In this document: positions 1 to 37,125 of the stretch, piece after piece
Layout of the letters: each line of letters begins with the position of its first letter
Position numbering within the stretch: the first letter of the stretch is position 1
Sequence record: MZ375281.1
Strand: one strand, 5' to 3'
Length of the DNA: 37,125 bases
Source: Escherichia phage T7
Notes under the pieces: generated by a model
What the model was told of the DNA's origin: nothing
Databases searched by the model: none
The model's input: only the letters and a program-made list of their open reading frames with translations
Translations under genes and position numbers: made by a program

Positions 1-142
1 TCTCACAGTGTACGGACCTAAAGTTCCCCCCATAGGGTGTACCTAAAGCCCAGCCAATCACCTAAAGTCAACCTTCGGTTGACCTTGAGGGTTCCCTAAG
101 GGTTTGTCTTTGGGTGTACCTTGAGTGTCTCTCTGTGTCCCT
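1..142. repeat. Left direct terminal repeat (identical copy at 36984-37125)
   Basis: Bases 1-142 match 36984-37125 exactly; begins TCTCACAGTGTACGG as in T7 terminal redundancy. Confidence 0.95.
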
Positions 143-330
143 CTCTGTTACAGTCTCCTAAAGTATCCTCCTAAAGTCACCTCCTAACGTCCATCCTAAA
201 GCCAACACCTAAAGACCCATCAAGTCAACGCCTATCTTAAAGTTTAAACATAAAGACCAGACCTAAAGACCAGACCTAAAGACACTACATAAAGACCAGA
301 CCTAAAGACGCCTTGTTGTTAGCCATAAAG
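143..330. repeat. Left-end array of short CCTAAAG/ACCTAAAGAC-type repeats (concatemer processing/packaging region)
   Basis: Multiple tandem-like cctaaag / agaccagacctaaag units visible. Confidence 0.7.
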
Positions 331-356: not shown

Positions 357-379
357 TAATACAACTCACTATAGGGAGA
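357..379 (+). promoter_or_regulatory. T7 RNAP promoter phiOL
   Basis: TAATACAACTCACTATAGGGAGA, +1 G at 374. Confidence 0.8.
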
Positions 380-430
380 GACAACTTAAAGAGACTTAAA
401 AGATTAATTTAAAATTTATCAAAAAGAGTA

Positions 431-7303: not shown

Positions 7304-7349
7304 TGGGACTGTTAGATGGTGAAGCCTGGGAAACATAAGGATAAATGTT

Positions 7350-7357: not shown

Positions 7358-7690
<333 letters not shown>

Positions 7691-7693
<3 letters not shown>

Positions 7694-7713
7694 TACGACT
7701 CACTATTAGGGAA
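7691..7713 (+). promoter_or_regulatory. T7 promoter phi2.5 (initiates with A)
   Basis: TAATACGACTCACTATTAGGGAA, +1 A at 7708. Confidence 0.9.
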
Positions 7714-7758
7714 GACTCCCTCTGAGAAACCAAACGAAACCTAAAGGAGATTAACATT

Positions 7759-8337
7759 ATGGCTAAGAAGATTTTCACCTCTGCGCTGGGTACCGCTGAA
7801 CCTTACGCTTACATCACCAAGCCGGACTACGGCAACGAAGAGCGTGGCTTTGGGAACCCTCGTGGTGTCTATAAAGTTGACCTGACTATTCCCAACAAAG
7901 ACCCGCGCTGCCAGCGTATGGTCGATGAAATCGTGAAGTGTCACGAAGAGGCTTATGCTGCTGCCGTTGAGGAATACGAAGCTAATCCACCTGCTGTAGC
8001 TCGTGGTAAGAAACCGCTGAAACCGTATGAGGGTGACATGCCGTTCTTCGATAACGGTGACGGTACGACTACCTTTAAGTTCAAATGCTACGCGTCTTTC
8101 CAAGACAAGAAGACCAAAGAGACCAAGCACATCAATCTGGTTGTGGTTGACTCAAAAGGTAAGAAGATGGAAGACGTTCCGATTATCGGTGGTGGCTCTA
8201 AGCTGAAAGTTAAATATTCTCTGGTTCCATACAAGTGGAACACTGCTGTAGGTGCGAGCGTTAAGCTGCAACTGGAATCCGTGATGCTGGTCGAACTGGC
8301 TACCTTTGGTGGCGGTGAAGACGATTGGGCTGACTAA
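7759..8337 (+). CDS. 2.5: ssDNA-binding protein gp2.5, truncated at codon 193 by in-frame TAA; 39 further in-frame codons (8338-8454) still encode the acidic tail ending DEDGDF
   Basis: 192-aa ORF MAKKIFTSALGTAEPYAYI...; TAA at 8335-8337; downstream frame VEENGYVAS...EEADEDGDF*. Confidence 0.9.
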   Translation: MAKKIFTSALGTAEPYAYITKPDYGNEERGFGNPRGVYKVDLTIPNKDPRCQRMVDEIVKCHEEAYAAAVEEYEANPPAVARGKKPLKPYEGDMPFFDNGDGTTTFKFKCYASFQDKKTKETKHINLVVVDSKGKKMEDVPIIGGGSKLKVKYSLVPYKWNTAVGASVKLQLESVMLVELATFGGGEDDWAD

Positions 8338-8457
8338 GTTGAAGAGAACGGCTATGTTGCCTCTGGTCCTGCCAAAGCGAGCAAACCACGCGACGAAGAA
8401 AGCTGGGACGAAGACGACGAAGAGTCCGAGGAAGCAGACGAAGACGGAGACTTCTAA

Positions 8458-8877
8458 GTGGAACTGCGGGAGAAAATCCTTGAGCGAATCAAGGTGACTT
8501 CCTCTGGGTGTTGGGAGTGGCAGGGCGCTACGAACAATAAAGGGTACGGGCAGGTGTGGTGCAGCAATACCGGAAAGGTTGTCTACTGTCATCGCGTAAT
8601 GTCTAATGCTCCGAAAGGTTCTACCGTCCTGCACTCCTGTGATAATCCATTATGTTGTAACCCTGAACACCGTTCCATAGGAACTCCAAAAGAGAACTCC
8701 ACTGACATGGTAAATAAGGGTCGCTCACACAAGGGGTATAAACTTTCAGACGAAGACGTAATGGCAATCATGGAGTCCAGCGAGTCCAATGTATCCTTAG
8801 CTCGCACCTATGGTGTCTCCCAACAGACTATTTGTGATATACGCAAAGGGAGGCGACATGGCAGGTTACGGCGCTAA
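8458..8877 (+). CDS. 2.8: gp2.8, HNH-motif protein (GTG start)
   Basis: 139-aa ORF; HSCDNPLCCNPEH motif. Confidence 0.8.
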   Translation: MELREKILERIKVTSSGCWEWQGATNNKGYGQVWCSNTGKVVYCHRVMSNAPKGSTVLHSCDNPLCCNPEHRSIGTPKENSTDMVNKGRSHKGYKLSDEDVMAIMESSESNVSLARTYGVSQQTICDIRKGRRHGRLRR

Positions 8878-9307: not shown

Positions 9308-9762
9308 TGGCTCGTGTACAGTTTAAACAACGTGAATCTACTGACGCAATCTTTGTTCACTGCTCGGCTACCAAGCCAAGTCAGAATGTTGGTGTCCGTG
9401 AGATTCGCCAGTGGCACAAAGAGCAGGGTTGGCTCGATGTGGGATACCACTTTATCATCAAGCGAGACGGTACTGTGGAGGCAGGACGAGATGAGATGGC
9501 TGTAGGCTCTCACGCTAAGGGTTACAACCACAACTCTATCGGCGTCTGCCTTGTTGGTGGTATCGACGATAAAGGTAAGTTCGACGCTAACTTTACGCCA
9601 GCCCAAATGCAATCCCTTCGCTCACTGCTTGTCACACTGCTGGCTAAGTACGAAGGCGCTGTGCTTCGCGCCCATCATGAGGTGGCGCCGAAGGCTTGCC
9701 CTTCGTTCGACCTTAAGCGTTGGTGGGAGAAGAACGAACTGGTCACTTCTGACCGTGGATAA
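9307..9762 (+). CDS. 3.5: T7 lysozyme: N-acetylmuramoyl-L-alanine amidase and T7 RNAP inhibitor (gp3.5)
   Basis: 151-aa ORF MARVQFKQRESTDAIFVHCSATKPSQN... Confidence 0.97.
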   Translation: MARVQFKQRESTDAIFVHCSATKPSQNVGVREIRQWHKEQGWLDVGYHFIIKRDGTVEAGRDEMAVGSHAKGYNHNSIGVCLVGGIDDKGKFDANFTPAQMQSLRSLLVTLLAKYEGAVLRAHHEVAPKACPSFDLKRWWEKNELVTSDRG

Positions 9763-11632
<1,870 letters not shown>

Positions 11633-12463: not shown

Positions 12464-14578
12464 ATGATCGTTTCTGACATCGAAGATAACGCCCTCTTAG
12501 AGAGCGTCACTAAGTTCCACTGCGGGGTTATCTACGACTACTCCACCGCTGAGTACGTAAGCTACCGTCCGAGTGACTTCGGTGCGTATCTGGATGCGCT
12601 GGAAGCCGAGGTTGCACGAGGCGGTCTTATTGTGTTCCACAACGGTCACAAGTATGACGTTCCTGCATTGACCAAACTGGCAAAGTTGCAATTGAACCGA
12701 GAGTTCCACCTTCCTCGTGAGAACTGTATTGACACCCTTGTGTTGTCACGTTTGATTCATTCCAACCTCAAGGACACCGATATGGGTCTTCTGCGTTCCG
12801 GCAAGTTGCCCGGAAAACGCTTTGGGTCTCACGCTTTGGAGGCGTGGGGTTATCGCTTAGGCGAGATGAAGGGTGAATACAAAGACGACTTTAAGCGTAT
12901 GCTTGAAGAGCAGGGTGAAGAATACGTTGACGGAATGGAGTGGTGGAACTTCAACGAAGAGATGATGGACTATAACGTTCAGGACGTTGTGGTAACTAAA
13001 GCTCTCCTTGAGAAGCTACTCTCTGACAAACATTACTTCCCTCCTGAGATTGACTTTACGGACGTAGGATACACTACGTTCTGGTCAGAATCCCTTGAGG
13101 CCGTTGACATTGAACATCGTGCTGCATGGCTGCTCGCTAAACAAGAGCGCAACGGGTTCCCGTTTGACACAAAAGCAATCGAAGAGTTGTACGTAGAGTT
13201 AGCTGCTCGCCGCTCTGAGTTGCTCCGTAAATTGACCGAAACGTTCGGCTCGTGGTATCAGCCTAAAGGTGGCACTGAGATGTTCTGCCATCCGCGAACA
13301 GGTAAGCCACTACCTAAATACCCTCGCATTAAGACACCTAAAGTTGGTGGTATCTTTAAGAAGCCTAAGAACAAGGCACAGCGAGAAGGCCGTGAGCCTT
13401 GCGAACTTGATACCCGCGAGTACGTTGCTGGTGCTCCTTACACCCCAGTTGAACATGTTGTGTTTAACCCTTCGTCTCGTGACCACATTCAGAAGAAACT
13501 CCAAGAGGCTGGGTGGGTCCCGACCAAGTACACCGATAAGGGTGCTCCTGTGGTGGACGATGAGGTACTCGAAGGAGTACGTGTAGATGACCCTGAGAAG
13601 CAAGCCGCTATCGACCTCATTAAAGAGTACTTGATGATTCAGAAGCGAATCGGACAGTCTGCTGAGGGAGACACAGCATGGCTTCGTTATGTTGCTGAGG
13701 ATGGTAAGATTCATGGTTCTGTTAACCCTAATGGAGCAGTTACGGGTCGTGCGACCCATGCGTTCCCAAACCTTGCGCAAATTCCGGGTGTACGTTCTCC
13801 TTATGGAGAGCAGTGTCGCGCTGCTTTTGGCGCTGAGCACCATTTGGATGGGATAACTGGTAAGCCTTGGGTTCAGGCTGGCATCGACGCATCCGGTCTT
13901 GAGCTACGCTGCTTGGCTCACTTCATGGCTCGCTTTGATAACGGCGAGTACGCTCACGAGATTCTTAACGGCGACATCCACACTAAGAACCAGATAGCTG
14001 CTGAACTACCTACCCGAGATAACGCTAAGACGTTCATCTATGGGTTCCTCTATGGTGCTGGTGATGAGAAGATTGGACAGATTGTTGGTGCTGGTAAAGA
14101 GCGCGGTAAGGAACTCAAGAAGAAATTCCTTGAGAACACCCCCGCGATTGCAGCACTCCGCGAGTCTATCCAACAGACACTTGTCGAGTCCTCTCAATGG
14201 GTAGCTGGTGAGCAACAAGTCAAGTGGAAACGCCGCTGGATTAAAGGTCTGGATGGTCGTAAGGTACACGTTCGTAGTCCTCACGCTGCCTTGAATACCC
14301 TACTGCAATCTGCTGGTGCTCTCATCTGCAAACTGTGGATTATCAAGACCGAAGAGATGCTCGTAGAGAAAGGCTTGAAGCATGGCTGGGATGGGGACTT
14401 TGCGTACATGGCATGGGTACATGATGAAATCCAAGTAGGCTGCCGTACCGAAGAGATTGCTCAGGTGGTCATTGAGACCGCACAAGAAGCGATGCGCTGG
14501 GTTGGAGACCACTGGAACTTCCGGTGTCTTCTGGATACCGAAGGTAAGATGGGTCCTAATTGGGCGATTTGCCACTGA
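12464..14578 (+). CDS. 5: T7 DNA polymerase (gp5)
   Basis: 704-aa [30 protein letters not shown]... Confidence 0.99.
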
Positions 14579-36983: not shown

Positions 36984-37125
36984 TCTCACAGTGTACGGAC
37001 CTAAAGTTCCCCCCATAGGGTGTACCTAAAGCCCAGCCAATCACCTAAAGTCAACCTTCGGTTGACCTTGAGGGTTCCCTAAGGGTTTGTCTTTGGGTGT
37101 ACCTTGAGTGTCTCTCTGTGTCCCT
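36984..37125. repeat. Right direct terminal repeat
   Basis: Identical to bases 1-142. Confidence 0.95.

What the first reader, a model, noticed from the sequence alone, without database searches (positions are those of the whole stretch)
7759..8457. In-frame ochre stop removes the acidic C-terminal tail of SSB gp2.5
The gene 2.5 frame hits TAA at 8335-8337 after 192 codons, yet the same frame continues for 39 more codons (VEENGYVAS...EEADEDGDF) to a second TAA at 8455-8457, directly abutting the GTG start of gene 2.8. 192 + 1 + 39 = 232, the full gp2.5 length, so this is a single-codon nonsense change (GAA to TAA as I recall the reference). The acidic tail with its terminal Phe mediates gp2.5 contacts with the DNA polymerase and primase-helicase and is reported to be essential, so this genome should be non-viable unless it is propagated on an ochre-suppressor or complementing host, carries compensating changes (suppressors of tail-less gp2.5 have been reported in gene 5), or contains a sequencing error.
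Basis: partly seen in the sequence, partly recalled or inferred. Interest (0 to 1): 0.85.

Follow-up and report, generated by a model that had tools for sequence, protein, structure and literature searches.

The report
Real stop codon truncating T7 SSB
A laboratory-evolved, genome-reduced phage T7 carries a genuine stop codon that removes the "essential" acidic tail of its single-stranded-DNA-binding protein yet still grows on an ordinary host. The stop most likely arose as an escape from Cas9 cutting and is tolerated because of changes elsewhere in the genome.

Summary
Window base 8335 is T where wild-type T7 has G (GAA to TAA, gp2.5 codon 193). The product is 192 aa with the OB fold intact, and the 39 tail codons remain downstream, untranslated.

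It is not a sequencing error: seven separately sequenced GenBank clones carry the same TAA.

The window is a whole 37,125-bp T7 genome with eight designed gene deletions. It comes from the CiPGr Cas9 genome-reduction experiment (Yuan et al., NAR 2022) and is probably the held-out clone T7_250L. Per that paper, gp2.5 was a Cas9 target and the clones were plaque-purified and assayed on plasmid-free E. coli MG1655, so suppressor or complementing hosts are excluded.

The only NGG protospacer covering the site was hit at least three times independently: E193*, E193K at the same base, and a +2 frameshift. An earlier clone repaired that frameshift to keep the tail. The stop is therefore most likely a CRISPR-escape mutation (about 0.55).

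How tail-less gp2.5 is tolerated is unproven. Gene 5 carries A8D, beside exonuclease residues D5 and E7, and K404T. A8D accompanies three different C-terminal alleles but is missing from one E193* clone.

This is a published lab artefact with a real, unexplored genetic implication.

The parts
7691..7713 (+). T7 promoter phi2.5 (initiating base, +1, at window 7708, which is WT 9107), driving gene 2.5
   Evidence: V01146 annotation plus the 1399-bp offset of this colinear block. The sequence is read.
7759..8337 (+). Truncated gene 2.5 ORF: 192 codons plus a premature TAA. It encodes gp2.5 residues 1-192 (a 40-residue C-terminal deletion) and carries A20T (G>A at 7816).
   Evidence: Pfam SBB_T7 (PF21265) covers residues 10-180 intact. 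The product aligns 1-192 to PDB 1JE5, the 206-aa delta-26C construct.
8335..8337 (+). Premature ochre codon (G>T at 8335, which is WT 9734; GAA>TAA, E193*)
   Evidence: The identical allele is in seven GenBank clones. The same nucleotide is G>A (E193K) in clone T7_290S.
8329..8351 (+). The only SpCas9 NGG target that covers the mutated base: protospacer GCTGACGAAGTTGAAGAGAA (8329-8348) plus PAM CGG (8349-8351). The mutation is 14 nt from the PAM. This is an inferred library target.
   Evidence: Enumeration of NGG sites. Three independent mutations fall inside it across sibling clones: E193*, E193K and a +2 insertion at WT 9742. The spacer list itself is not available.
8338..8457 (+). Untranslated remnant of gene 2.5: 39 codons for the linker and acidic tail, plus the original TAA. 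It contains T>C at 8368 (S204P codon), 6 nt from an AGG PAM on the minus strand.
   Evidence: There is no in-frame ATG, GTG or TTG in this stretch (read), so the tail cannot be made separately.
8458..8877 (+). Gene 2.8 (139 aa, GTG start abutting the original gene 2.5 stop). It is intact apart from L72R. Translational coupling to gene 2.5 is probably lost, but its own GGAG lies 8 nt upstream.
12464..14578 (+). Gene 5 DNA polymerase carrying A8D (C>A at 12486) and K404T (A>C at 13674). These are candidate permissive or compensating changes.
   Evidence: A8D lies next to D5 and E7 (SDIEA>SDIED). Natural relatives have A or T at position 8 and K or N at position 404. K404T is in 35 records from T7_90L onward. 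A8D is in 10 records.
7327..7333 (.). Junction of the designed gene 1.7 deletion (WT 8197-8725 missing), about 1 kb upstream of the stop. It co-occurs with E193* in all carriers except T7_280S.

Best explanation
The window is a complete genome of a laboratory T7 lineage produced by CiPGr, in which phage was passaged repeatedly on E. coli MG1655 expressing Cas9 and a library of guides with repair templates. It is most probably clone T7_250L.

Gene 2.5 was one of the 36 genes given guides. In the cassette-gene library the offered repair deletes the whole gene, which is lethal, so the phage could survive only by mutating the targeted sites.

The G>T at codon 193 lies in the one NGG protospacer that covers that base. 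It is most likely one of several escape mutations at that target. As a side effect it converts GAA to TAA, so gp2.5 is made as a 192-residue protein. That protein has a complete OB-fold DNA-binding domain but lacks the linker and the acidic tail ending in Phe232.

The phage nevertheless replicates on a non-suppressing, plasmid-free host. I infer that the evolved background has relaxed the need for the tail-polymerase contact. The leading candidates are the gene 5 substitutions:
- A8D sits beside the 3'-5' exonuclease catalytic residues D5 and E7. It may lower exonuclease activity and allow strand-displacement synthesis at nicks without the gp2.5 tail.
- K404T has been fixed since about transfer 90.

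Shown: the mutation, its inheritance, its recurrence, the retained OB fold, the gene 5 changes, and viability (from the paper). Inferred: escape as the selective cause, and gene 5 as the suppressor.
For: Identity of the genome:
- It is whole T7 with terminal repeats and eight clean deletions of genes 0.4-0.6, 1.4, 1.7, 3.8, 4.3, 5.3, 7.7 and 19.5.
- It shares junctions and many point mutations with MZ375287 'T7_280L'.
- MZ375281 (T7_250L by the accession numbering) is the only late accession absent from the collection.

Source study (PMC9825161):
- gp2.5 is listed among the designed genes 'deleted or disrupted'.
- Eight spacers per gene span each target.
- Sequenced clones came from the cassette-gene library, were plaque-purified and were assayed on MG1655 without plasmids.
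- T7_300L had a burst size of 2.1 and was genetically stable over 12 transfers on the original host.

Allele is real: seven other genomes hold the identical TAA 49-mer.

Recurrence at the target:
- WT 9734 is G>T in eight clones and G>A in T7_290S.
- A +2 insertion sits at 9742, in the seed or cut-site region, in T7_270S and T7_150S.
- The chance expectation for a same-site pair plus a third event within 9 bp is 0.014.
- gp2.5 carries 15.7 distinct events per kb, against 2.2-5.3 per kb in genes 4, 5 and 6.

Tail under selection earlier: T7_150S pairs the +2 insertion with a +1 insertion 40 nt downstream that restores the acidic tail.

OB fold intact.

Gene 5: A8D and K404T. A8D accompanies three different C-terminal alleles in two deletion haplotypes. 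D is never seen at position 8 in six natural relatives.

Prior art: the titles of Marintcheva 2009 and Ghosh 2009, as listed, state that gene 5 mutations suppress tail-defective gp2.5 and that Phe232 is needed for strand displacement at a nick.
Against: - The mutated base is PAM-distal (14 nt from the PAM), where single mismatches usually protect poorly. Synonymous seed positions (WT 9739, 9742, 9745) were available but were not the ones recovered.
- NGG sites are so dense that 67-85% of gp2.5 positions lie near some PAM. Position alone proves nothing.
- The actual spacer list could not be read.
- T7_280S has E193* without A8D, so A8D is not strictly required.
- K404 is K or N in natural relatives, so K404T may be nearly neutral.
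- The association of A8D with C-terminal alleles is confounded by linkage and clonal descent.
- E193* co-occurs with the gene 1.7 deletion 1 kb away, so hitch-hiking is possible.
- There are no read-level data. Minority full-length genomes in the stocks cannot be excluded.
Confidence: 0.55

Rival explanations
1. Hitch-hiking or drift. E193* is a deleterious or neutral passenger that rose with a linked beneficial change, such as the designed gene 1.7 deletion 1 kb upstream (which removes eight Cas9 targets), during transfers 250-300. It has nothing to do with Cas9 escape at its own site.
For: E193* co-occurs with the 1.7 deletion in all carriers but T7_280S. The paper reports two genes deleted in transfers 200-300 and a collapse of burst size to 2.1 in T7_300L. 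The base is PAM-distal.
Against: The 1.7 deletion also exists on tail-intact backgrounds such as T7_250S. Hitch-hiking does not explain a second substitution at the same nucleotide (E193K) or the +2 insertion 8 bp away. E193* clones were the 'L' (strongest-killing) isolates at transfers 270-300.
Confidence: 0.2
2. Protein-level adaptation. In the reduced genome with an altered polymerase, loss or weakening of the gp2.5 tail is itself beneficial. Tail-less gp2.5 binds ssDNA more tightly and could favour recombinational rescue of Cas9-cut genomes. On this view nonsense, frameshift and charge-reversal alleles were all selected for their effect on the protein.
For: All three alleles alter the protein at residues 193-197. 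PMC10359462 reports longer residence of delta-21C gp2.5 on ssDNA. E193* sits in the best-killing clones.
Against: Selection for tail loss should scatter stops and frameshifts over about 40 codons, not within 9 bp. T7_150S restored the tail after the frameshift. The 'optimal' high-fitness mutants T7_5t2 and T7_5t3 keep full-length gp2.5. All natural relatives keep the tail.
Confidence: 0.12
3. Functional full-length gp2.5 is still supplied. The routes would be low-level read-through of UAA, an ochre-suppressing or complementing host, or a minority helper genome with GAA in the plaque stock.
For: The tail codons remain in frame behind the stop. The very low burst size of T7_300L would fit dependence on a rare product. 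There are no read-level data.
Against: Clones were plaque-purified and tested on MG1655 without plasmids. MG1655 carries no suppressor tRNA (strain genotype, my knowledge). The window has a non-conservative S204P in the remnant, consistent with the remnant no longer being translated. Tail-defective gp2.5 is reported to be dominant lethal (title of Marintcheva 2009), so a trace of full-length protein should not rescue. No reversion was reported after 12 transfers.
Confidence: 0.06
4. Sequencing or assembly error in the deposited genome.
For: The genomes are de novo short-read assemblies of many similar genomes (methods).
Against: The same base is found in eight independently assembled clones from five sampling points, and the alleles differ at neighbouring sites.
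Confidence: 0.01

Closest known systems
gp2.5 C-terminal truncations made by the Richardson laboratory (delta-21C, delta-26C / PDB 1JE5, and deletion of Phe232)
   Same: The protein is the same and the loss is of the same kind: OB fold retained, acidic tail and terminal Phe absent. The 192-aa product aligns 1-192 with the 206-aa crystallised construct.
   Different: This allele is a longer truncation (40 residues). It arose spontaneously in the phage genome rather than on a plasmid. It is carried by plaque-forming phage on a non-complementing host, whereas the engineered truncations are reported not to support growth (Kim & Richardson 1994, title; details from my memory).
Extragenic suppressors in gene 5 of gp2.5 lacking Phe232 (Marintcheva et al. 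2009; Ghosh et al. 2009)
   Same: A tail-defective gp2.5 coexists with amino-acid changes in the T7 DNA polymerase. K404T lies in the segment [16 protein letters not shown], seven residues from A411. I recall A411 as a published suppressor position (memory, unverified).
   Different: The substitutions here (A8D, K404T) are not shown to be the published ones. Necessity and sufficiency are untested, and one E193* clone lacks A8D. The paper could not be retrieved.
CRISPR-escape mutations (CEMs) of phages under Cas9 selection, as discussed in the CiPGr paper for T7 and T4
   Same: The mutations are in a gene targeted by library guides, recur within one protospacer, include an indel at the cut site, and arose during continuous Cas9 passage.
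   Different: The focal base is PAM-distal, and the escape destroys a protein segment regarded as essential. The spacer identity is unverified.
Classical T7 amber or ochre conditional-lethal mutants
   Same: A single-base nonsense codon in an essential replication gene.
   Different: Those mutants need a suppressor host. This phage was propagated and assayed on sup0 MG1655.

Membership tests
[quoted passage not shown] | OB-fold ssDNA-binding domain matching the family profile | tested here: met
   PF21265 E = 5e-90 over residues 10-180, with the full 169-position profile matched. 191 of 192 residues are identical to PDB 1JE5.
[quoted passage not shown] | Acidic C-terminal tail ending in an aromatic residue (..DF), translated as part of the protein | tested here: not met
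   TAA at codon 193. All six natural relatives sampled end in DF. The coding remnant persists but has no in-frame start codon.
CRISPR-escape mutation | The gene was targeted by guides during the selection | tested here: met
   The paper lists gp2.5 among the 28 designed genes detected as deleted or disrupted, with up to eight spacers per gene.
CRISPR-escape mutation | The mutation lies in the seed or PAM of a guide actually present in the library | tested here: inconclusive
   Only one NGG protospacer covers the base, at 14 nt from the PAM. Supplementary spacer tables are not held. Background PAM density makes position uninformative.
CRISPR-escape mutation | Independent recurrent mutations in the same protospacer | tested here: met
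   E193*, E193K and a +2 insertion lie within 9 bp. The chance expectation is 0.014.
Suppressed or recoded nonsense codon | Ochre-suppressor tRNA in the host or phage, or a recoding signal | tested here: not met
   The host was MG1655 without plasmids, which is sup0 by known genotype. T7 encodes no tRNA (annotation). No tRNA scan was run on the window.
Tail-defective gp2.5 rescued by gene 5 suppressors (Marintcheva 2009) | gp2.5 lacks the C-terminal Phe, and the phage is viable without complementation | tested here: met
   Sequence. Viability as reported.
Tail-defective gp2.5 rescued by gene 5 suppressors (Marintcheva 2009) | Gene 5 substitution(s) that are necessary and sufficient for the rescue | not testable with these tools
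   A8D and K404T are present, but T7_280S has E193* without A8D. Genetics would be needed.

The most novel reading that the evidence does not exclude
The evolved T7 background has genuinely bypassed the SSB-tail/polymerase handshake. Here the whole gp2.5 linker and acidic tail (40 residues) are dispensable for plaque formation on a wild-type host. The cause would be a polymerase change next to the exonuclease active site (A8D, possibly together with K404T) that lets the enzyme start strand-displacement synthesis and coordinate with helicase without the tail. That would make a contact regarded as essential for 30 years conditionally dispensable, and it would provide the strain in which to dissect it.
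Probability: 0.3. Interest if true: 0.7.

Novelty: new member of a known kind. Interest (0 to 1): 0.5.

Why it matters

Public genomes from a genome-minimisation study contain at least eight plaque-forming clones in which the tail is removed by a stop codon, and one in which a frameshift replaces it. The study's main text mentions gp2.5 only once, in a list of 'disrupted' genes.

If the tolerance maps to the polymerase (A8D and/or K404T), it would give a simple genetic handle on what the tail actually does in vivo. Candidates are strand displacement at nicks, SSB eviction and helicase loading.

It also carries two practical cautions:
- Cas9-based 'essentiality' screens can drive phages into crippled escape genotypes. 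T7_300L has a burst size of 2.1.
- 'Minimal' phage chassis from such screens may carry hidden loss-of-function alleles in core replication genes.

Tried and rejected
- Searched the paper library for the accession MZ375233; no hits.
- Tried to read the key primary papers: Marintcheva 2009 by PubMed id, Ghosh 2009 PMC2781589, Ghosh 2010 PMC2878571, and a guessed id for the Hernandez & Richardson review. None is held. Keyword searches for the suppressor residues found nothing usable. The identities of the published suppressors therefore rest on my memory.
- Supplementary tables of the CiPGr paper (spacer list, mutation lists) are not held.
- Seed/PAM enrichment test for gp2.5 mutations was uninformative because NGG density is high.
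- Mutator test for gene 5 A8D: SNV counts in a common 7.5 kb are 9-15 in both A8D-plus and A8D-minus late clones, so there is no signal.
- Separate expression of the tail by re-initiation is rejected, because there is no in-frame ATG, GTG or TTG after the stop.
- OL964740 and OL964741 were checked as possible revertants. They are unrelated 'optimal' mutants (T7_5t2, T7_5t3) with full-length gp2.5.
- The PhageMaP T7 essentiality preprint had nothing on gp2.5.

Full report
**1. The observation.**

Window 7759-8457 reads, in one frame, as follows:
- 192 codons of T7 gene 2.5;
- TAA at 8335-8337;
- 39 more sense codons ending ...EEADEDGDF;
- the normal TAA at 8455-8457, abutting the GTG of gene 2.8.

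Base-by-base comparison with the reference T7 genome V01146 shows G>T at window 8335 (WT 9734), turning GAA (Glu193) into TAA. Gene 2.5 has two further differences. G>A at 7816 gives A20T. T>C at 8368 changes the Ser204 codon to Pro, in the part that is no longer translated.

**2. What the window is.**

The window is a complete T7 genome with both terminal repeats. It is 37,125 bp rather than 39,937 bp. Eight clean deletions remove genes 0.4-0.6, 1.4, 1.7, 3.8, 4.3, 5.3, 7.7 and 19.5, and there are about 35 point substitutions.

The nearest public records are the series MZ375233-MZ375294, named 'Mutant Escherichia phage T7 clone T7_nL/S'. They come from Yuan et al., Nucleic Acids Res 2022 (PMC9825161). 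That study passaged T7 300 times on E. coli MG1655 carrying Cas9, lambda Red, and a pooled library of guides with 50-bp repair arms ('CiPGr').

Accession order encodes the transfer number, as the clone names confirm. MZ375281, which would be T7_250L, is the only late accession missing from the collection. The window matches no held record exactly, yet it shares junctions and many mutations with its siblings. It is therefore very probably T7_250L.

**3. The stop codon is a real, inherited allele.**

The exact 49-mer centred on the TAA occurs in seven other genomes: T7_270L, 280L, 280S, 290L, 300L, 300S and 300L.2. In each, the depositors annotated a 579-nt SSB gene. Sequencing error is excluded.

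**4. Host and viability.**

According to the paper:
- Plaques were purified every ten transfers.
- The strongest (L) and weakest (S) killers were sequenced.
- T7_300L had a burst size of 2.1 against 143 for wild type.
- T7_300L was genetically stable over 12 further transfers on the original host, with only a gp17 change reported.

MG1655 has no nonsense suppressor; that is the strain genotype, from my own knowledge. The suppressor-host and complementing-host explanations therefore fail. Tail-less clones were the best killers available at transfers 270-300.

**5. Why the mutation is there.**

gp2.5 is named among the 28 designed target genes whose deletion or disruption was detected. Each target received up to eight guides spanning the gene. 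The sequenced T7 clones came from the cassette-gene library, whose repair template deletes the whole gene. For gp2.5 that repair is lethal, so survival requires target-site mutations.

Across 16 clones I reconstructed the genotype of WT 8.2-18.4 kb. The results for gene 2.5 are:
- WT 9734 is G>T (E193*) in eight clones.
- WT 9734 is G>A (E193K) in T7_290S.
- T7_270S has a 2-bp insertion at 9742. It shifts the frame after Glu196 and replaces the acidic tail with a basic peptide.
- T7_150S has the same 2-bp insertion plus a 1-bp insertion 40 nt downstream. Together these scramble 13 linker residues but put the acidic tail back in frame.

All of these lie in one candidate target, GCTGACGAAGTTGAAGAGAA|CGG. 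It is the only NGG protospacer that covers 9734. The insertion falls in its seed and cut-site region.

Two statistics support selection on the gene:
- The chance expectation of two different substitutions at one base plus a third event within 9 bp is about 0.014.
- gp2.5 carries 15.7 distinct events per kb, against 2.2-5.3 per kb in the untargeted genes 4, 5 and 6.

The window's extra T>C in the untranslated remnant sits 6 nt from another PAM. That fits continued Cas9 pressure on DNA that is no longer constrained by coding.

I therefore read E193* as a CRISPR-escape mutation whose coding consequence is collateral. Four caveats apply:
- The base is 14 nt from the PAM.
- Synonymous seed sites were available.
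- PAM density makes position alone uninformative.
- I could not see the spacer list.

Hitch-hiking with the nearby gene 1.7 deletion, and direct selection for tail loss, remain possible rivals.

**6. What the protein is now.**

The 192-residue product retains the complete Pfam SBB_T7 domain, residues 10-180. It aligns end to end with the first 192 residues of the crystallised delta-26C protein, PDB 1JE5. It lacks the linker and the acidic tail with Phe232.

No in-frame start codon follows the stop, so the tail cannot be made separately. In six natural relatives, whose polymerases are 55-87% identical to T7's, the SSB always ends in an acidic tail with a terminal DF. The frame-restoring double insertion in T7_150S shows the tail was still worth keeping at transfer 150.

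**7. How the phage copes (inference).**

Reference titles seen establish three points:
- Loss of the terminal Phe is dominant lethal but suppressible by gene 5 mutations (Marintcheva et al. 2009).
- The Phe is needed for strand-displacement synthesis at a nick (Ghosh et al. 2009).

The window's gene 5 has two substitutions.

K404T:
- It has been present since T7_90L and is in 35 records. It therefore pre-dates tail loss.
- Natural relatives have K or N at this position.

A8D:
- It converts SDIEA to SDIED, directly after the exonuclease residues D5 and E7. Their catalytic role is my own knowledge.
- Natural relatives have only A or T at this position.
- It is in just 10 records: T7_150S, 240L and nearly all clones from transfer 270 on.
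- It accompanies three different gp2.5 C-terminal alleles in two different deletion haplotypes.

A plausible mechanism is that A8D lowers exonuclease activity and so permits tail-independent strand displacement. From memory, exonuclease-poor T7 polymerase is known to displace strands at nicks.

Several observations weaken this:
- T7_280S carries E193* without A8D.
- The association is confounded by linkage.
- A8D shows no mutator signature.
- The window has no change in gene 4, so the helicase tail is not altered.

I give the gene 5 suppressor idea roughly 0.3-0.4.

**8. Comparison and novelty.**

The allele is a new, longer, spontaneously arisen member of the known class of tail-less gp2.5 variants. 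It lies in a published data set whose authors list gp2.5 only as 'disrupted'. Mechanistically it resembles known CRISPR-escape mutations and known tail-defect/gene 5 suppressor pairs. It is neither natural biology nor a new kind of element.

Its value is that viable phages lacking the entire SSB tail exist and are sequenced. That makes the in-vivo role of the tail directly testable.

**9. Verdict.**

- Observation: confirmed.
The lesion is right, gene 5 changes are present, error and suppressor host are excluded, and the Cas9-selection origin was missed.
- Interest: moderate, 0.5.

Noticed in passing
L020 (MZ375262, T7_150S) locus 1422-2123; WT coordinates 9742 and 9782: gp2.5 carries a +2 insertion and a +1 insertion 40 nt apart. 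Together they scramble 13 linker residues (RTAMLPLVLPKRA) but restore the acidic tail in frame. This is a frameshift with an intragenic compensator, showing selection to keep the tail at transfer 150.
   Followed up: partly
L004 (MZ375286, T7_270S) locus 7655-8395: gp2.5 is annotated as 741 nt. The +2 insertion alone replaces the acidic tail with a 50-residue basic out-of-frame peptide that runs into gene 2.8. This is a second, independent tail-loss genotype in a plaque-forming clone.
   Followed up: partly
window 361-383 (WT 405): The phiOL promoter has A>G, turning TATAAGGAGAG into TATAGGGAGAG, which is closer to the strong T7 promoter consensus. All four whole-genome siblings compared share it.
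   Followed up: no
window 20297, 20308, 20370 (WT 22893, 22904, 22966): There are three substitutions around promoter phi10 and the gene 10 start. G>T is at the annotated phi10 position and is shared by all clones. G>A 11 nt upstream, and T>C at the base immediately before the gene 10 ATG, are private to the window. They may retune capsid-gene expression.
   Followed up: no
window 1-230 and 36984-37125 (terminal repeats and left-end repeat array): Both terminal repeats carry an extra C in the C-run, a G>T and an 18-bp deletion (WT 99-116). In addition, the window alone has lost one 13-bp CCTAAAGCCAACA-type repeat unit (WT 223-235). This explains the 15-bp coordinate offset from MZ375287.
   Followed up: partly
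window 8672-8673 (WT 10071-10072), gene 2.8: An adjacent double substitution TA>GT (L72R) is present in every clone from transfer 150 on. A tandem change in a targeted non-essential gene looks like another Cas9-escape scar.
   Followed up: no
whole genome, 16 sibling clones: The spectrum of 113 distinct SNVs is rich in transversions: C>A 25 and A>C 16, against A>G 34 and C>T 31. The stop itself is a G>T (folded as C>A). This is an oxidative-damage-like signature of unknown cause.
   Followed up: partly
WT 13233 and 13237 (gene 4 codons 557-558, overlapping gene 4.2) in L004, L006, L013 and L009: [quoted passage not shown] These sites also lie in the targeted gene 4.2, so they may be escape mutations that incidentally alter the other replisome 'tail'.
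   Followed up: no
L003, L005, L006, L013 (T7_300L.2, 270L, 280S, 300S), gene 5 CDS: In clones with the gene 4.7 deletion the depositors annotate a 2217-nt DNA polymerase CDS, 102 nt longer than wild type. This implies an upstream in-frame start created by the deletion junction. It may be only an annotation artefact.
   Followed up: no
phages collection, MZ375281.1: This accession (T7_250L by the numbering scheme) is absent from the searchable collection, although all its neighbours are present. It is probably the source record of the window.
   Followed up: partly
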